The position numbers and the translations under genes were made by a program. The notes under the pieces were generated by a model. The model saw only the letters and a list, made by a program, of their open reading frames with translations, was not told the DNA's origin and made no database searches. A stretch of DNA of 38,198 bases from a virus. Lineage: Duplodnaviria > Caudoviricetes. Shown here piece after piece: positions 22,013 to 35,822 of the stretch (positions are counted from its first letter, which is position 1; every line of letters begins with the position of its first letter). The stretch spans positions 1 to 38,198 of IMG/VR virus record IMGVR_UViG_3300037722_001041. One strand, given 5' to 3'.

Positions 22013-22055
22013 AAAAAGAAAAAGCCCGGCCCGGTCTCGGCCGGGAGCCGGGCTT
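22013..22055 (-). terminator. Rho-independent terminator
   Basis: AAGCCCGGC...GCCGGGCTT GC-rich stem followed by TTTCTTTTT. Confidence 0.85.
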
Positions 22056-22356: not shown

Positions 22357-23037
22357 TTAGTCCGTAATAGTGGCGGTCCCTGCTCCGGGAATAAAGACCC
22401 AGCTCGTACCATCGCAGATCCATTTGCAACTTGCCCCGATGATCTCATTAGCCGTTGACAACGCCACACTATTTGCGTTAAGGGTGTTCAGAGCCAGGAT
22501 CGTGTTCACAGTGTTCGCAGTGAACGTTGTATTCTGCCCAACCCCACTCACGTACTCGAACCACTTACCGTTAATTGCCGCCGCAACATCCGGCAACGTA
22601 TAGTTCCGATCGCTCGCAGCGCGGTTTGTGACCAATGCCCCCCAGTGAGTTGCGTTGAGGGTTGTGTTCGTATTTTGAACCACAACCTTCTGATCAACCG
22701 AACCATTGGATGTTGGGACAACCGAGCCTGTCATATTGAGAGTCGTGGCATTCAAAGTCGTGATTGTGGCAGTGCCGGTTGTATTGATCGCGGCGTTGGA
22801 GCTAATCCCAACACCGGCGAGCGTCATAGACGCCCCACCCTTGTCAAACAAGACGGACGTCGAGGTGTCACCCAAGAAAACTTGGACATCGCAGTCATTC
22901 GTGCCGTCACCAAAGGCAAACTTGCCTTGATCATCCACCGCGGGCAAAAAGTTGGCAACCTCGCCGGAAGCCAAATCAAACTTGTCGTCGCTAACCAGAC
23001 CTTCCTGGAGAAGGCGGATTATGTTTTTCGATCCCAT
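22357..23037 (-). CDS. Putative capsid decoration/head-fibre protein (226 aa)
   Basis: Thr/Asn-rich beta protein with YTLP...CDGTSW C-terminal domain; GAGG RBS; capsid operon. Confidence 0.55.
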   Translation of the reverse strand: MGSKNIIRLLQEGLVSDDKFDLASGEVANFLPAVDDQGKFAFGDGTNDCDVQVFLGDTSTSVLFDKGGASMTLAGVGISSNAAINTTGTATITTLNATTLNMTGSVVPTSNGSVDQKVVVQNTNTTLNATHWGALVTNRAASDRNYTLPDVAAAINGKWFEYVSGVGQNTTFTANTVNTILALNTLNANSVALSTANEIIGASCKWICDGTSWVFIPGAGTATITD

Positions 23038-23155
23038 GGTTGCTTCCTCTCAATTTTACAACATAGAAAAGTTGGTCCCGGGCGACACGCTGCCGCGAAC
23101 ACCTCTTGTGCTCTCCGCCGGGCCGAGACGCCGGGTACTGCCGGCATACAGTTAG

Positions 23156-23226
23156 TAGCGGAGGTGGGAATCGAACCCACGTGCGCGGCGTATGAGGCCG
23201 CTGAGAAACCTCTTCTCGACCCCGCA
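23156..23226 (-). tRNA. tRNA-Met(CAT), initiator-like (U1:U72 mismatch)
   Basis: TGCGGGG/CTCCGCT-A acceptor; anticodon arm GCGGC-CTCATAC-GCCGC; T arm GTGGG-TTCGATT-CCCAC; no encoded CCA. Confidence 0.85.
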
Positions 23227-23227
23227 G

Positions 23228-23300
23228 TCGGGCACCCATGGCTCGCACATGGCGCCTCCTGATCCCAAATCAGGCGTGCCGCTACCTGCACCTCTGCCCG
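23228..23300 (-). tRNA. tRNA-Pro(TGG), atypical
   Basis: CCTGA-TTTGGGA-TCAGG; C1-G72, A73; T loop TGCGAGC; G7:G66 mismatch; A8. Confidence 0.8.
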
Positions 23301-23343
23301 AAACGTGGCCGTGTTTAACGTGGTGTACGCATCTCATCCACGG
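23301..23343 (-). ncRNA. SAM-II-like pseudoknot element (copy upstream of tRNA-Pro)
   Basis: CCGTGG-ATG-AGATG-CGT-ACA-CCACG-TTAAAC-ACG-GCCA-CGTTT. Confidence 0.45.
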
Positions 23344-23345
23344 AG

Positions 23346-23417
23346 TGGACCTCGCGGAAGTTGCACCCGCCACACCGACTTTGCAAGAGTCAGTCGCCCC
23401 TAACGGCATGCAGGCCC
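23346..23417 (-). tRNA. tRNA-Ala(TGC), atypical
   Basis: TGACT-CTTGCAA-AGTCG; G3:U70 identity pair, A73; T loop TGCAACT; G7:G66 mismatch; C8. Confidence 0.8.
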
Positions 23418-23518
23418 TTGGTCGGGAGCTGTTTCAAGTCTCTCACCCCCGGCACGACCACCGTTTTTGAAGGTCTGGCACGACCTATAATCCCGTGAGC
23501 CATGCGGCCCTGGAACAA

Positions 23519-23591
23519 AGCTGCCATCTGGAATCGAACCAGAATCTGATGCCTCACAAGAGCACCGCTTTGCCTGTTAAGCTACAGCAGC
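23519..23591 (-). tRNA. tRNA-Thr(TGT)
   Basis: GCTGCTG/TGGCAGC-T acceptor with C2-G71; GTGCT-CTTGTGA-GGCAT (G37); canonical TTCGATT T loop. Confidence 0.88.
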
Positions 23592-23593
23592 CA

Positions 23594-23643
23594 AGCAGGG
23601 CTGATTTTTTTATCGTGGTGCAATGCCCCGCTACCATCCACGG
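23594..23643 (-). ncRNA. SAM-II-like pseudoknot element (copy upstream of tRNA-Thr)
   Basis: CCGTGG-ATG-GT-AGCGGGGC-ATT-GCA-CCACG-ATAAAAA-AAT-CA-GCCCTGCT; 8-bp loop-to-tail pairing. Confidence 0.55.
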
Positions 23644-23677
23644 CGGAAGTAAGCCTTACCGCGAGCTTGCTTGTAAG

Positions 23678-23749
23678 AGCAGCAAACCGGTTATGATCCG
23701 GCACGGCCAGTTTGGAAGACTGGTGCTCTGCCAGTTGAGCTATTGCCGC
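23678..23749 (-). tRNA. tRNA-Gly(TCC) with non-canonical T loop
   Basis: GCGGCAA/TTGCTGC-T; normal D arm; CCAGT-CTTCCAA-ACTGG; T arm GCCGG-ATCATAA-CCGGT. Confidence 0.85.
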
Positions 23750-23754
23750 TTCTC

Positions 23755-23813
23755 GACCAGATTATCGTGCTGGTCTACCCACGGCTGCATTATTGGCAGT
23801 ACAGCTTCTGCCA
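23755..23813 (-). ncRNA. Two back-to-back H-type pseudoknots upstream of tRNA-Gly
   Basis: TGGCAG-AA-GCTGTA-CTGCCA-ATAA-TGCAGC immediately followed by CGTG-GGTA-GACCAG-CACG-ATAAT-CTGGTC. Confidence 0.55.
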
Positions 23814-23902
23814 TGTCTGGGCGCCCTTGTTTAGGCCGGCGCGCCGCCCGCCACTGTTTTGAGTACCAACCACTACCGGCATCGGATTAAGCCCCGCAGG
23901 GA

Positions 23903-24745
23903 TTACTCTTCGCCGTTCATGTACTGACAGGCCATGACCCAATCGACGTTAAACTTGGCTTCCGCTGCCGTTCCAACTTTCGTGAGAATCAGAGGAATCA
24001 TTGCCTCGTTCTCCGGGAAGGTCGCAGCGTCCAGGTTCGTTGTAGTTACATATGACCCGGCGTCAGCCGCGTTGATGTAGAAGGTGATTTTCTTTGCATC
24101 GTCAGCAGTTGGATCGTAAACGAAACCAACCTTATACCAAGTGTTGGCAACAAGTGTCAGCGCGTTCGCCTCAACTTGCTGCAACGTCTGGCTTGCGGCT
24201 TGGTACGCGATGTCCATTTGATCGCCGTCGTCGTTCAGACGTTGGAAGCCCACGAAGTTGCCAGTCGTAATGAACGCTCCCGTATCGTCAACCAGCGTGT
24301 TGGCGCCCACGCCTGCGGCAGCAGCACTCCCCAGACCAAGCACGAATGCACAGCCATTGTCGGCAATTGTCTCGGTTAGGAAGCGTGCTTCATACAATAC
24401 CTTGCCGGTGTTGCCTGCAGCATTGTCAATTCGGAATGTGGCACCGCTGCCCAGTTGAACGTGGCCTTCGTCATTGTCCGCATCGTTGCCGGCGATTTCA
24501 AGAACACCGAGAGCATTACCGAGGTCAACGGCCGTGTCGCCTTGAATCGTAACACCCGTGTCTTGGTAGGTTAGATAGCCGCCTGACGCCCCGGCACTAG
24601 CGTGAACCGGGACATTTTGGAAGTCATCATATACGACGACACATTTCCCGATGAGCTGATCGTGCAAAAGCTTTGCAGGATCACCAAAAATGATAGGAGA
24701 AGGACCGCGGTTGGTTTCTCCGAAGTAGCGAACGTAATTAGACAT
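23903..24745 (-). CDS. Putative capsid decoration/auxiliary protein with concanavalin-like fold (280 aa)
   Basis: YDDF...WYKVGFVYD...ITFYIN...FNVDWV pattern; downstream of the MCP. Confidence 0.6.
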   Translation of the reverse strand: MSNYVRYFGETNRGPSPIIFGDPAKLLHDQLIGKCVVVYDDFQNVPVHASAGASGGYLTYQDTGVTIQGDTAVDLGNALGVLEIAGNDADNDEGHVQLGSGATFRIDNAAGNTGKVLYEARFLTETIADNGCAFVLGLGSAAAAGVGANTLVDDTGAFITTGNFVGFQRLNDDGDQMDIAYQAASQTLQQVEANALTLVANTWYKVGFVYDPTADDAKKITFYINAADAGSYVTTTNLDAATFPENEAMIPLILTKVGTAAEAKFNVDWVMACQYMNGEE

Positions 24746-24855
24746 GATCTCACCCTTTCAAAGGCTAGACTGGCCTATGCCCCCACAAGCCCAGGAATTT
24801 ATCATCCGTGAATGGTCTGATAGTCTCGCCCGCCAAGGGCAAGATGTTTCGTTGA

Positions 24856-25326: not shown

Positions 25327-26370
25327 TTACACACTGGTCGTGAAGACTGCATTCCGGCGCCTGTCGACGCACAAAAAGTTGTAAGTCAGATCAAGGAACA
25401 CCTGCCACACATTGTGCTGGTTTGGTGCCCTAGTGGCCTCGCTTTCACGCAAGTAATCACCCTTGAGGCAAATTGGGTAAAAAGTGCTGTGGTCGATCAT
25501 GTAGACCGGTCCGTCGCTGCGCGAGTCCAACTTCGGAATCCACACAATCGGGTGCTTGCGGAAGAGCATCTGGCCATCCATCGCAGCGATGTCGCGGCCG
25601 AGGTTCTCGTTCTGTCCTTCGCCAACATCCTCAATCGAAAGGATCACGGACTCGGGGACGTAAATCCGATACCGCTCGCCCATCGCTCCGCGGTAGTCTT
25701 GTTCCGTCACCGGACTCTTGAACCGAATCTTCCGGTGCGCGGTTCGCATCTTCGAGACCAGGTCCGACTTCGTCACACTGGTGTAAACAGCCGTGTAGTT
25801 CTTGAAATTCGGGCTGTCGGTCAGGTTGACGTTACCGATTGTCGTATGGCTACCAGGTAGGCCTCCGTTGAAGCCGGTTGTGGCATTCTCGACAATCCAG
25901 TACTGGATGCTGTAAGGCAGAATCTTGTCAGTCGTGCCCGGCGCCGTACCCCACGCGCGATCTTCCAACTCCTCGACGAGGCCCAGAAGTGCCGCAGCCC
26001 GACGGGGCTTGATGACGTTTAGAATCAGACTCTTGCCGCGGTTCATCAAAATGTCAGTCTGGTAGATCAGGGCCCATGATGTCTGCGCGTGGCGCCACGG
26101 AATCTGAAGCTGATCCAGGACGTCAGGAATGTTCACCTGATCGGTATCCATAAGGCCAACGTGCTTGGCACTGGTGCTGTCCAATTTGGACATCAGCGTG
26201 CGCTGGATACCGATACCGGAATCAAACATCACCTTGTCTTTCTTGAACCACTTCGAAAATACTTCGTAGTAGGGCAAGGATTGAGCAATCTGTTGAAATC
26301 TGAGTGGACCAAGGTCGTACAACGTACTAGCGACTAGGTCGGCAATGTCGGTCGCGGTCAAAGCTGCCAC
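25327..26370 (-). CDS. Major capsid protein (HK97 fold)
   Basis: 347 aa, GTG start with GAAGGA RBS, own promoter and terminator, strong C/G3 codon bias, coat-like C-terminal motifs (YMID...NFLCVDRRRNAV). Confidence 0.85.
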   Translation of the reverse strand: MAALTATDIADLVASTLYDLGPLRFQQIAQSLPYYEVFSKWFKKDKVMFDSGIGIQRTLMSKLDSTSAKHVGLMDTDQVNIPDVLDQLQIPWRHAQTSWALIYQTDILMNRGKSLILNVIKPRRAAALLGLVEELEDRAWGTAPGTTDKILPYSIQYWIVENATTGFNGGLPGSHTTIGNVNLTDSPNFKNYTAVYTSVTKSDLVSKMRTAHRKIRFKSPVTEQDYRGAMGERYRIYVPESVILSIEDVGEGQNENLGRDIAAMDGQMLFRKHPIVWIPKLDSRSDGPVYMIDHSTFYPICLKGDYLRESEATRAPNQHNVWQVFLDLTYNFLCVDRRRNAVFTTSV

Positions 26371-33271: not shown

Positions 33272-35104
33272 CTAACTCTCCGTACCAGCTCTCACCAAAG
33301 CTGTTATGTTTTTCTTGCTGCGTTCCTCAATACCTTGCGTACTTCGATTCTCGCGTACGTAGTTGCGTGTTGTCGATGGACTCTGCAAAGGCCTCCGACC
33401 GGGAGTTTGCGGCATCATGTCATTCTGCCCCTGTAGTGTCATCTCTGATGAAATCAATTCCGTGATCTCTGGGAGGTCGGAATATTTTGCGATCAATTCG
33501 ACCAGTTTCTTCATATTCAGCGACATTCCCCATTGGCTTAACATCGGCGCCAGCGGCAGAAAAACCTGCGTCGTCAGCTGCATAATTGAGCCGAGACGCT
33601 GCTGCGGTCCTTTGCTTTGCAGGCTATACGGGGCAATCTGAAACTGGTAACGGAAGAAATCCTGTTCTCGACGTTCGGCCGGATTCCATGTGAACTCAAT
33701 ATCGCCAAAACCCTCAATCTGTTTTGACAAATCCAACTCAAGAAATGGGTCGGAATACATATACCAGGCCAAGTCTTTAATGACATCTGCTGTGAACGTC
33801 ACAACCTTTGACTGCATATCGCGTAGCATTTCGCTGCTTGACTGCACCAGCAATTGCTCCTGGCCAAGGGTTCCTCCTTGCTGTGACAACCCTCCCATAG
33901 CGTCAAGATTTCCCGCCATGTAGGACAGAGTTTCTTTGAGCCATTGGACGAACCCAAAATTCCCCGGATCAACCCCGCCGTATTTCAACTCTTTGACGCT
34001 GTCAATGTGCGTCGCCTGGATAACTTGGCCGTCTTCGGCCTCCATGATCGTCTGAGCTGTTCCATCCGCGACAGCACGGCCATCAGCGATCGTGAGCGTT
34101 TTTTGTCTCTTCGCTTGCAATCCAAGTTGATTCACAAGAACAGTCAGCAGGTCCTGCAGATCAAACAAATGCTGCGCCGGAGCTGATGGCATGATGTTTC
34201 CCGGCACCGTCGAAAATGCCAGTAGATGAAACGGGCCATGCTCCGGGCCCTCCCATTCGCGAACTAGCAGTGGTTGAAGACCTTGCTGCGCGGGAAGTGT
34301 CACGAATAGGTTATCGCCAGGAATCCAGATATCCCAGAGATCGACGTGTTGACGATATTCTGTTTTCGAAATCGCATTTCCAGCTGTCCAATCCGAAGTG
34401 CTTTCCTGCCCGCCGGCAAAATCTTCGACAACACCGCGTTCTGTTTCCGGAGATAACTTCGCTTTTGCCTCTTTATCGTATTCCGGATTACTCGCAACAA
34501 GATCGTATGGCATCCTGTAGCGATTCGCAACCCAATCCCATTCCTCCTGACGACGTGCATTCATATCGTAGAGGAAATCTTCAAGCAACACTGGTTCTGC
34601 GTACGGTTGTCCGCCTTTGGATGTGTAACCGGCACCGCGTGGCAGGTATTCAGACGTAACACCAACCTTCATCACCCCGAGTAGGAATAACGCAGATCGT
34701 ACTACATCCGAGAGATTACGCCCGAATTTGATCGCATCAAGTAGAAAGCTTGTCGCCAATTCCATTTCATATGCTTGGGCCGTCAATGCCGGAGATTTGG
34801 TTAACACCAGCGCCGCAGGCGATTGCGATACCAATTGCCGCAACCAAATTTCGATTGCGAGACGCATCATATTCAACGGTGTCTCGCCACTGCCAGAGTT
34901 CTCTCCATATCGACTGCCGGCGAAATAGGAGACGCTATCTACGTACTGGGCCCGAAACGTCGCCATTTGTCGGGCGGACCAAGCCATCGAATCTCGCAAT
35001 TTGTCAACGTCGACATCGCGAAGCGGATTGATTCCGCCCAGGCGGTCATTGTTACCGCCGCGGTCTTGCTTGGAGCCGAAATCCTCGTCCGGGTGTACGC
35101 TCAT
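33272..35104 (-). CDS. Portal protein (podovirus/P22-like)
   Basis: 610 aa downstream of TerL; GVMKVG, DFLYDM, GPFHLL, helical stem/crown pattern. Confidence 0.85.
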   Translation of the reverse strand: MSVHPDEDFGSKQDRGGNNDRLGGINPLRDVDVDKLRDSMAWSARQMATFRAQYVDSVSYFAGSRYGENSGSGETPLNMMRLAIEIWLRQLVSQSPAALVLTKSPALTAQAYEMELATSFLLDAIKFGRNLSDVVRSALFLLGVMKVGVTSEYLPRGAGYTSKGGQPYAEPVLLEDFLYDMNARRQEEWDWVANRYRMPYDLVASNPEYDKEAKAKLSPETERGVVEDFAGGQESTSDWTAGNAISKTEYRQHVDLWDIWIPGDNLFVTLPAQQGLQPLLVREWEGPEHGPFHLLAFSTVPGNIMPSAPAQHLFDLQDLLTVLVNQLGLQAKRQKTLTIADGRAVADGTAQTIMEAEDGQVIQATHIDSVKELKYGGVDPGNFGFVQWLKETLSYMAGNLDAMGGLSQQGGTLGQEQLLVQSSSEMLRDMQSKVVTFTADVIKDLAWYMYSDPFLELDLSKQIEGFGDIEFTWNPAERREQDFFRYQFQIAPYSLQSKGPQQRLGSIMQLTTQVFLPLAPMLSQWGMSLNMKKLVELIAKYSDLPEITELISSEMTLQGQNDMMPQTPGRRPLQSPSTTRNYVRENRSTQGIEERSKKNITALVRAGTES

Positions 35105-35544
35105 TTGTCGTGTTTTCTCAGGTAATTAACCGCCGCCTCTAGCACAAGCGGATCATCACAAAAGTAGCCCAACCCACTGTTACACCTATAGCAAAGAAAC
35201 TCACGAATTTTTCCATCTTGGTGGTCATGATCAAGATGGGGTCGCGCAGTCAATGAGCCACAAATAGCGCAGCGATTGCCGGATTCTTCGCGTAATCTGT
35301 CGTACTCTTCCAACGTGATCCCAAACTTTGCGTGAACATACCTCCGGCGCCCGTCCTCTTTGTGTTTCCTGTAATATTCAGGATTCTGCTTCCGCAACTG
35401 TGCGCATTCCCGCCTCTTCTCGAGGTACTTAGGATCTTTTTCGAGGACTTCGCGGTAAGCTTTGTATTTTTTAGAGGTTTTCCGCCAAACCTTCATGTAG
35501 GCGTTTCTGTATGCTTTTCGTTTTTCCGGATCTTTGTAGGGCAT
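35101..35544 (-). CDS. Endonuclease VII-type HNH nuclease
   Basis: FGIT..EY, CAIC, HLDHDH, IREFLCYRCNSGLG; basic helical N-terminus. Confidence 0.9.
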   Translation of the reverse strand: MPYKDPEKRKAYRNAYMKVWRKTSKKYKAYREVLEKDPKYLEKRRECAQLRKQNPEYYRKHKEDGRRRYVHAKFGITLEEYDRLREESGNRCAICGSLTARPHLDHDHQDGKIREFLCYRCNSGLGYFCDDPLVLEAAVNYLRKHDK

Positions 35545-35546
35545 AT

Positions 35547-35822
35547 TTAGTCCCAACTAGAGTACCAGTTTTCGACATCGTGGTCAGGCGACACATTATC
35601 TTTCTCAGAAAATCCGCGAGGTCTACTATGACGCTCCTCAAATGGCGTCATATCTTCCTCTGCGGCATGTGTCGCGAGTCCGCCAGCATACAAACCACCT
35701 GTATCTTTGCCGGTCATGTCAGGATCACCTGCCAGTTCCGTGTCACCGCCCTGCTCCCGAGCAACAGATCGGCATGCTTCACGAATCATGAATGTGGGAT
35801 CGGTATCATAGCTGTTAGCCAT
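35547..35822 (-). CDS. Acidic hypothetical protein (91 aa)
   Basis: GGAGG RBS. Confidence 0.6.
   Translation of the reverse strand: MANSYDTDPTFMIREACRSVAREQGGDTELAGDPDMTGKDTGGLYAGGLATHAAEEDMTPFEERHSRPRGFSEKDNVSPDHDVENWYSSWD

What the first reader, a model, noticed from the sequence alone, without database searches (positions are those of the whole stretch)
23038..23902. ~860-nt RNA island in the capsid operon: five tRNAs interleaved with a chain of H-type pseudoknots
Seen: the spacers between the tRNAs are structured. Clear H-type pseudoknots with A-rich loop 3 lie at 23784-23813 (TGGCAG/CTGCCA + GCTGTA/TGCAGC), 23755-23783 (CGTG/CACG + GACCAG/CTGGTC) and 23594-23643 (CGTGG/CCACG + AGCGGGGC/GCCCTGCT). 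Weaker ones lie at 23301-23343 and about 23642-23670 (AAGCT/GGCTT + GCGG/CCGC). Three of them end 0-5 nt before a tRNA 5' end (Gly, Thr, Pro). The same topology recurs with different sequences, which argues for selection on structure. Known: phage large ncRNAs such as GOLLD often neighbour or embed tRNAs. Inference: this is either an undescribed large tRNA-embedding ncRNA, or a polycistron in which RNase P cleavage releases stable small pseudoknot RNAs (decoys, aptamers or exonuclease blocks) during late infection.
Basis: partly seen in the sequence, partly recalled or inferred. Interest (0 to 1): 0.85.

Follow-up and report, generated by a model that had tools for sequence, protein, structure and literature searches.

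The report
Swappable pseudoknot-tRNA cassette in phage operon
Between two virion genes of an uncultured phage lies a patchwork of five tRNA genes, small knotted RNA modules that relatives swap, and an older folded leader of the next gene; it is likely cut into separate small RNAs rather than being one giant RNA, and the modules match no catalogued RNA family.

Summary
The island has three clear and two atypical tRNAs, and 8 A-rich H-type pseudoknot parses in the spacers against 1.8 in shuffles (0 of 200 reach 8). It is not one GOLLD-like RNA. Four relatives carry islands of 465-763 nt at the same site, with different tRNAs and different inner pseudoknots, even where the flanking protein is 98% identical. 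Only three parts recur in all five islands: a pseudoknot before the first tRNA, one after the last, and a three-way-junction leader. Best reading (inferred, untested): a late-operon transcript is punctuated by tRNA excision, and the pseudoknots cap the cut ends and persist as small stable RNAs, like T4 RNA C and D. A bolder reading is a swappable set of decoys against host RNA-binding defences. Rfam 15 finds only tRNAs. No RNA data or host were found. The scan noted similar pseudoknot chains and spike-gene leaders on other phage DNA.

The parts
25327..26370 (-). Major capsid protein gene (context)
   Evidence: No direct family hit; homologue in L009 (34.5% identical) matches phrog_9953 major head protein, E 1.5e-8
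23903..24745 (-). Upstream gene, LamG/ConA-like domain, likely a virion protein
   Evidence: Pfam PF13385, E 9.4e-7; 102 homologues. In most distant relatives a GC-rich hairpin follows it instead of the island (read by eye)
23820..23852 (-).
   Evidence: Parsed in window, L001, L002, L048, L148; stem 1 is 100% paired over 4 sequences with one two-sided change (the stem 2 count there is invalid because of a register shift; not significant with 4 sequences); the window's stem 1 has a bulge
23784..23813 (-). PKA: 6+6 bp H-type pseudoknot
   Evidence: identical in L001 (0 of 30 positions differ), so no covariation; no counterpart found in L002, L048, L148
23755..23783 (-). PKB: 4+6 bp H-type pseudoknot, abuts PKA, ends 5 nt before tRNA-Gly
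   Evidence: identical in L001; a contig of run X2 carries other sequence here (table 7)
23677..23749 (-). tRNA-Gly(TCC), atypical T loop, no encoded CCA
23643..23668 (-). Weak pseudoknot or simple hairpin
   Evidence: The two L001 changes inside it fall in loop 1 or at the stem edge; a hairpin is the nested minimum-energy fold
23594..23642 (-). PKC: 5+8 bp H-type pseudoknot with 12-nt A-rich loop 3, ends 2 nt before tRNA-Thr
   Evidence: in L001 one stem 2 pair changes on both sides (23626 and 23600) and the other 2 of 4 differences are in loops
23519..23591 (-). tRNA-Thr(TGT)
23457..23486 (-). PKD: hairpin with A-rich tail; second stem doubtful
   Evidence: Parsed; a variant contig in run X2 keeps stem 1 but not the stem 2 partners (loose ends)
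23423..23459 (-).
   Evidence: Also in L048, there before tRNA-Pro, with a two-sided change in stem 1 that breaks a pair of the rival nested fold; 2 sequences only
23345..23417 (-). Atypical tRNA-Ala(TGC): degenerate D arm and T loop, keeps G3-U70 and A73
   Evidence: Relaxed ARAGORN; identity elements recalled; found in none of the 4 related islands
23301..23343 (-). Hairpin sharing its first stem with PKC; pseudoknot not supported
   Evidence: Repeat families D3 and D17; no parse
23227..23300 (-). Atypical tRNA-Pro(TGG), directly abutting tRNA-Met
   Evidence: present in 4 of 5 islands
23155..23226 (-). tRNA-Met(CAT) with initiator-like features (unpaired 1:72, A11-U24)
   Evidence: the meaning of the features is recalled
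23128..23152 (-).
   Evidence: stem 1 94.7% and stem 2 100% paired over 5 sequences, each with a two-sided change
23054..23122 (-). Three-way-junction leader (P1 23122-23118 with 23081-23077, P2 with purine-rich loop, short P3), then ACCA, a 4-bp P4 and TAAAA before the ribosome-binding site; travels with the downstream gene family
22357..23037 (-). Downstream gene, likely capsid spike or head decoration protein
   Evidence: Model of the family (first row L013; pLDDT 85) best matches the Pa223 capsid spike 9ny6, E 2.7e-5; 48% identical homologues of the L011 copy are annotated 'head decoration protein' in 3 of 5 records

Best explanation
The island is a mosaic tRNA-plus-pseudoknot cassette lying in front of an older structured leader of a likely capsid-spike gene; it is likely transcribed with the late virion genes and likely cut apart when host enzymes excise the tRNAs, after which the pseudoknots would cap the cut ends and persist as small stable RNAs. 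Shown: modules, their reshuffling, covariation of the outer pseudoknot PKG and of the leader, and the leader's tie to the spike gene. Inferred: (1) co-transcription, since all genes and tRNAs share a strand, the scan finds no promoter or terminator inside on that strand, and the first terminator-like site follows at 22045; (2) RNase P and 3' trimming release the tRNAs (established knowledge); (3) excision cuts the mRNA, so PK0 would guard the new 3' end of the upstream message and PKG the new 5' end of the spike message; (4) the inner, lineage-specific pseudoknots come out as 30-90 nt stable RNAs, in the manner of T4 RNA C and D; (5) the leader sets translation of the spike gene, probably through a bound virion protein.
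For: Pseudoknot density above shuffles in the window and L001. PK0 and PKG bracket the tRNAs in 5 of 5 islands, and no parse resembling either was seen in 14 tRNA-less leader regions (judged by eye; 9 of the 14 gave other, mostly weaker or leader-overlapping, parses). PKG plus leader: 95.1% of cells paired, 5 pairs changed on both sides, 0 of 500 shuffles reach the covariation score, slid controls 28-42% paired. Leader in 12 tRNA-less copies: 93.2% paired, 9 of 19 pairs changed on both sides. A model from these 12 alone finds the L002 copy at E 2e-6 and L001 at E 0.024. 13 of 20 spike-family starts carry the leader against 5 of 400 random windows; 6 of the 7 misses are second genes of tandem pairs. 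Modules move: PKE precedes Ala in the window but Pro in L048; L047 and L048 have 98% identical LamG proteins yet unrelated 5' halves. In most distant relatives a terminator-like hairpin sits where PK0 sits. T4 makes two small RNAs of unknown role from its tRNA region, classed as late (PMC3014915, PMC9697503, passages).
Against: No expression, processing or probing data. The five islands lie in one 7-member clade, so tRNA-PK0-PKG co-occurrence may be a single event. PKA and PKB show no covariation, and their identity with L001 (0 of 94 positions differ in PK0-PKB, against 60-63% of four-fold sites in three neighbouring genes) could come from recent exchange rather than selection. Counts in L048, L002 and L148 are not above chance. 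PK0 covariation is not significant with 4 sequences. The leader model from tRNA-less copies missed the window's own copy at E <= 2; the link runs through L001 and L002. End-capping does not explain why inner modules turn over so fast. My search for bacterial pseudoknots that block exoribonucleases listed 4 reviews, which I did not read.
Confidence: 0.5

Rival explanations
1. The inner pseudoknots are released as decoys for host RNA-binding defence proteins, such as type III toxin-antitoxin nucleases whose antitoxins are 34-36-nt H-type pseudoknots; with the tRNAs they form an anti-defence cassette. This is compatible with the best explanation and supplies a job for the released RNAs.
For: Size and topology match type III antitoxins (PMC5086642, PMC13682666, passages). 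Phage TE escapes ToxIN with a pseudo-ToxI RNA (PMC3475682, passages). Phage tRNA loci can be amplified against defences by a homing endonuclease (PMC13096335, abstract), and an HNH-like ORF follows the island in L148 (read by eye). Fast module swapping is typical of counter-defence loci (own knowledge).
Against: No tandem repeats and no Rfam ToxI or AbiF match. ToxI binds through single-stranded tails and is cut at A-rich sites between repeats, whereas PKA and PKB abut with no tail and the spacer A-runs lie mostly inside loop 3. Host and its defences are unknown.
Confidence: 0.18
2. The pseudoknots are folding insulators or processing aids: they tie up GC-rich spacer sequence so that each tRNA folds and is cut correctly, and are degraded afterwards.
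For: A nested fold of the whole island gives 74 long-range pairs with p > 0.5, some inside tRNAs; pseudoknots end 2-6 nt before several tRNA 5' ends in 4 of 5 islands.
Against: Pro-Met in three islands, and the two tRNA-like pieces of L002, abut with no pseudoknot; simple hairpins or shorter spacers would do; three pseudoknots in a row before Gly are more than an insulator needs.
Confidence: 0.14
3. The island is one large tRNA-embedding ncRNA like GOLLD or ROOL.
For: Length 865 nt, dense structure, phage and tRNA context as described for GOLLD, whose linker sometimes holds tRNAs (10.1101/2024.12.08.627333, passages); both ends are conserved.
Against: No Rfam match; length 465-865 nt with unrelated middles; the PK0-leader duplex is not above shuffles in any of 5 islands (32, 112, 44, 184 and 208 of 300); the 3' end exists alone as a gene leader.
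Confidence: 0.07
4. Some modules are small self-cleaving ribozymes that trim the tRNAs, like theta ribozymes.
For: Theta ribozymes sit next to phage tRNAs (PMC10879173, passages).
Against: Theta cleavage sites lie within 5 nt of a tRNA 3' end and need an HDV-like nested double pseudoknot with a catalytic C. My descriptor (written from recall) gave hits only inside tRNA arms in 2 of 5 islands and none in the others. No Rfam ribozyme hit.
Confidence: 0.05
5. Most inner modules are chance folds or relics in GC-rich spacers.
For: The loose scanner finds formal pseudoknots even inside tRNAs; three islands are not above chance by count; PKD and 23301-23343 look degraded.
Against: Two-sided changes in PKC, PKE and PKG; window density 0 of 200.
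Confidence: 0.06

Closest known systems
Phage T4 RNA C and RNA D (rnaC, rnaD; PMC3014915, PMC9697503)
   Same: Small non-tRNA RNAs encoded within a phage tRNA region, function unknown
   Different: Here the pieces are 25-50-nt H-type pseudoknots that are swapped between relatives, the cluster sits inside a virion operon, and expression is not shown; I did not compare sequences with rnaC or rnaD
GOLLD and ROOL RNAs (PMC5737381; 10.1101/2024.12.08.627333)
   Same: Phage, next to or around tRNAs, several pseudoknots, similar total length
   Different: No Rfam match, no conserved multistem core or long-range helices; content reshuffles; the conserved 3' part is a separate gene leader
Type III antitoxin RNAs (ToxI, CptI, TenpI) and pseudo-ToxI of phage TE (PMC5086642, PMC13682666, PMC3475682)
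   Same: Tandem H-type pseudoknots of similar size with an A-rich loop across stem 1
   Different: Not repeats of one unit, no toxin gene found, no single-stranded tails between PKA and PKB, interleaved with tRNAs
Theta ribozymes (PMC10879173)
   Same: Small pseudoknotted RNAs next to phage tRNAs
   Different: Single H-type knots, mostly 5' of tRNAs; no HDV core or catalytic C at a tRNA 3' end
Phage gene leaders GP20-a and GP20-b and other candidate cis RNAs (PMC10690425); T4/T2 gene 32 operator pseudoknot (PMC3014915)
   Same: Structured leader just before the start of a phage gene; gene 32 shows that a phage leader can be a translational operator
   Different: Different fold and gene; no Rfam match; whether the leader is among the 10,006 candidates of PMC10690425 could not be checked (the two zip files were unreadable)

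Membership tests
GOLLD / ROOL | Match to the family covariance model | tested here: not met
   only tRNA passes; nothing else below E 0.1
GOLLD / ROOL | One conserved large fold with long-range helices | tested here: not met
   middles unrelated, end-to-end duplex not above shuffles
GOLLD / ROOL | Phage context next to tRNAs | tested here: met
T4 RNA C/D-like small RNAs of tRNA clusters | Structured non-tRNA segment inside a phage tRNA cluster | tested here: met
T4 RNA C/D-like small RNAs of tRNA clusters | Accumulates as a discrete stable RNA in infection | not testable with these tools
   No RNA run was listed
Type III antitoxin | H-type pseudoknot with A-rich loop | tested here: met
   (predicted, not probed)
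Type III antitoxin | Tandem repeats of one unit | tested here: not met
   0 arrays; only short shared stems. TenpI repeats can be non-identical
Type III antitoxin | Terminator and toxin gene downstream | tested here: not met
   Next gene is spike-like; no such toxin among 26 ORFs in PADLOC or 37 in Pfam; the record is about 52% complete
Type III antitoxin | Binds and inhibits a toxin | not testable with these tools
   Needs a bench assay
Theta / HDV-like ribozyme | Nested double pseudoknot with catalytic C starting within 5 nt of a tRNA 3' end | tested here: not met
   (descriptor from recall); placement rule from PMC10879173
SAM-II, preQ1-I, pistol, guanidine-III (small H-type aptamers and ribozyme) | Match to the Rfam model | tested here: not met
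   none listed at E <= 10; likeness of the first stem and A-rich loop to these RNAs is recalled only
tmRNA | tRNA-like ends with a tag frame and pseudoknots | tested here: not met
   ARAGORN finds none; the permuted-tmRNA hit (E 0.43, 17.5 bits against a cut-off of 47) is the Met T arm
Cis-regulatory phage gene leader (three-way junction) | Fixed position just before one gene family, kept by covariation | tested here: met
Cis-regulatory phage gene leader (three-way junction) | Changes expression of the gene | not testable with these tools
   Needs a reporter

The most novel reading that the evidence does not exclude
Phages use tRNA excision as a processing scaffold to release a swappable library of tiny pseudoknot RNAs that act as decoys for host RNA-binding defence proteins, while two fixed pseudoknots armour the cut ends of the virion mRNA: tRNA punctuation of a late operon doubling as an RNA counter-defence cassette.
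Probability: 0.15. Interest if true: 0.85.

Novelty: new variant of a known kind. Interest (0 to 1): 0.52.

Why it matters
Small stable RNAs in phage tRNA clusters have had no known role since T4 RNA C and D. This locus breaks such a region into minimal 25-50-nt modules with natural swaps between close relatives, which makes the question easy to test: each module can be made, probed and offered to nucleases and defence proteins. It also yields an uncatalogued, well covarying leader tied to a capsid-spike gene family, which bears on how phages set the amount of accessory virion proteins.

Tried and rejected
Rfam at gathering and E-value thresholds: tRNA only. blastn of the island and two spacers against cultured phages: only tRNA pieces or E >= 1; tblastn of the capsid protein found no cultured relative. 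Exact-pattern scans of viral contigs for PK0 and PKG returned only contigs already known (1 and 3 loci). The first leader pattern gave 22 loci, 3 real; the second gave 81 unique matches, 13 real by eye, 4 of them new. Expression: no RNA holder listed; this is no evidence either way. Host: relatives in two binned genomes (Pirellulales, Gemmatimonadota) may be mis-binned, and the capsid gene was found in 1 of 401 genomes of the former's phylum, the one already known; a plasmid search with tRNA-Gly was uninformative. RNAalifold on the MAFFT alignment of 14 leaders recovered only P4, because P1 was out of register; I used per-sequence parses and sub-alignments instead. The stem 2 count for PK0 is invalid for the same reason. 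I first read the leader's ACCA as a tRNA-like 3' end, but its CA lies in the covarying P4 stem; an RNase P site there is not excluded. Long-range PK0-leader pairing rejected. Codon supply: the A-ending codons read by four of the tRNAs make up 26-33% of their boxes overall and 12-19% in the capsid gene, so no clear codon reason. No tRNA elsewhere in 4 tRNA-less relatives' records, 3 of them incomplete. In the tree L055 was mislabelled as lacking the leader; it has it. Literature: three searches (phage + tRNA cluster + H-type pseudoknot; phage tRNA processing of late mRNA; tRNA genes + decoy ncRNA) returned 0 papers. Readable supplements of PMC10690425 held none of my contig ids or motifs, but its two zip files could not be read.

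Full report
Setting. The window is a linear virus record, about 52% complete, with terminase, SU10-type portal and adaptor, and endonuclease VII genes. The virion genes and everything in the island read on the minus strand. The island lies between a LamG-domain gene (23903-24745) and a gene (22357-23037) whose family model resembles the Pa223 capsid spike and whose relatives are annotated head decoration protein. The gene at 25327-26370 is the major capsid protein by way of a homologue. No cultured relative was found and the host is unknown.

Observation. Three tRNAs pass default tools and two more, Ala and Pro, pass a relaxed threshold. Pro is kept by compensatory changes (6 of 21 pairs, 4 sequences). 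A scanner for H-type knots with both stems at or below -6 kcal/mol and an A-rich loop 3 gives 8 in the window's spacers against 1.76 +/- 1.17 in shuffles (0 of 200), and 2.0 per 500 nt in 36 other tiles. The criteria were chosen after seeing the island, and three of the four related islands are not above chance by count.

Relatives. Searches with the LamG and capsid proteins gave 44, 76, 67, 2 and 9 loci, many redundant. In most, a GC-rich hairpin follows the LamG gene and there are no tRNAs. Four distinct relatives carry an island: L001 (763 nt; Gly, Thr, Pro, Met), L048 (553 nt; Thr, Pro, Met), L002 (465 nt; a degenerate tRNA and Pro) and L148 (one tRNA, then an HNH-like ORF after the leader). 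All five lie in one supported 7-member clade with two tRNA-less members. The window and L001 share the first 384 nt at 95% identity although 60-63% of four-fold sites differ in three neighbouring genes (44% in the capsid gene). Yet L047 (same phage as L001) and L048, with 98% identical LamG proteins, share nothing in the 5' half. The island is therefore a mosaic, and the identity of PKA and PKB with L001 may reflect exchange as much as selection.

What is conserved. (1) PK0 before the first tRNA in 5 of 5 islands, with different stems in L048; four sequences are too few for significance. (2) PKG after the last tRNA in 5 of 5, directly before (3) a three-way junction with a short fourth stem. 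PKG plus junction: 95% of cells paired, 5 pairs changed on both sides, no shuffle of 500 reaches the score (the tool warns that relatedness inflates this control, but the slid controls fall to 28-42% paired). Inner modules are lineage-specific, but two show two-sided changes: PKC in L001 and PKE in L048, where it precedes another tRNA.

The leader is a separate element. It parses in 19 of 20 copies tried, and L055 adds one more. Twelve copies from tRNA-less phages give 9 of 19 pairs with two-sided changes, and a model built from them finds L002, L149, L218 and L001, though not the window's own copy. It follows the spike family when that gene moves (L013) and occurs twice in L011, which has two paralogues. 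Of 20 family starts, 13 parse, against 5 of 400 random windows; six misses are second genes of close tandem pairs and one is a copy that the strict parser missed. One homologue in a cultured-phage collection follows its capsid gene by 21 nt with no room for a leader, and L148 has the leader before an HNH-like ORF. A cis role on the spike gene is the natural inference; translational control by a bound virion protein, as for T4 gene 32 (PMC3014915, passages), is a guess.

Mechanism. No promoter or terminator is found inside the island on its strand, and a terminator-like site follows at 22045, so it is likely part of a late transcript. By established knowledge RNase P and 3' trimming will excise the tRNAs, none of which encodes CCA. 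That would cut the message. The two invariant knots sit where new ends would arise, and PK0 takes the place of the hairpin seen in tRNA-less relatives, so I infer an end-capping role. This rests on one clade. The inner knots are not needed for processing, since some tRNAs abut directly; they would be released as compact stable RNAs. T4 RNA C and D are the precedent (PMC3014915, PMC9697503, passages). Their fast turnover and likeness in size and topology to type III antitoxins (PMC5086642, PMC13682666, passages), with the pseudo-ToxI precedent (PMC3475682, passages), make a decoy role the boldest open reading, but repeats, tails and a toxin gene are missing.

Rejected. GOLLD or ROOL membership, theta ribozyme, tmRNA.

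Novelty. No module matches Rfam 15. Three literature searches found no paper with the term sets used; the library lacks most subscription papers, and the zip files of PMC10690425 were unreadable. Papers seen only as passages or listings: PMC5737381, PMC10690425, PMC10879173, PMC12283969, 10.1101/2024.12.08.627333, 10.64898/2026.09.22.753630 (passages); PMC13096335 (abstract and outline). This scan's own notes describe similar chains of pseudoknot modules in other phage tRNA clusters and structured leaders before capsid-spike-like genes; none matched this DNA by sequence, and I did not check them. The kind of thing is known; these modules, their order and the bracketing pattern appear new.

Noticed in passing
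L148 4290 onward (same contig as L130, L221): An HNH-like homing endonuclease ORF follows the leader directly, where the spike gene lies in other relatives (read by eye); recalls SegB next to T-even tRNA clusters.
   Followed up: no
L047 2005-2500, L002 5109-5550, L148 1945-2500, L218 6032-6600: Different endonuclease-VII-like ORFs are inserted right after the major capsid gene in four relatives (read by eye); the window has a hairpin there instead and carries such a gene at 35101-35556.
   Followed up: no
window 24746-24855; L047, L002, L148, L149 just before the LamG gene: The untranslated stretch before the LamG gene looks structured and partly conserved among relatives; it may be another leader.
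   Followed up: no
window 22357-23037 and family (alignment A6): A short N-terminal helix (MSxxNIxRL) is kept across spike-family genes with very different lengths and domains; it may anchor them on the capsid.
   Followed up: partly
L011 6869-6976 and 7364-7491: Two spike paralogues each have their own leader, whereas six other tandem second copies lack it.
   Followed up: yes
window 23227-23300: tRNA-Pro has A at position 8 and a G-G pair at 7:66 in all 4 relatives; the T loop is canonical in L002 and L048 but altered in the window and L001, possibly nuclease evasion.
   Followed up: partly
run X2, contigs over window 23067-23180, 23388-23460 and 23819-24100: One soil sample holds further island variants, including other sequence in place of PKB.
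   Followed up: partly
L001 1901-1945, L048 1077-1130, L002 7115-7185, L148 4075-4122: Each relative has its own extra module, often a pseudoknot parse, between the last tRNA and PKG.
   Followed up: partly
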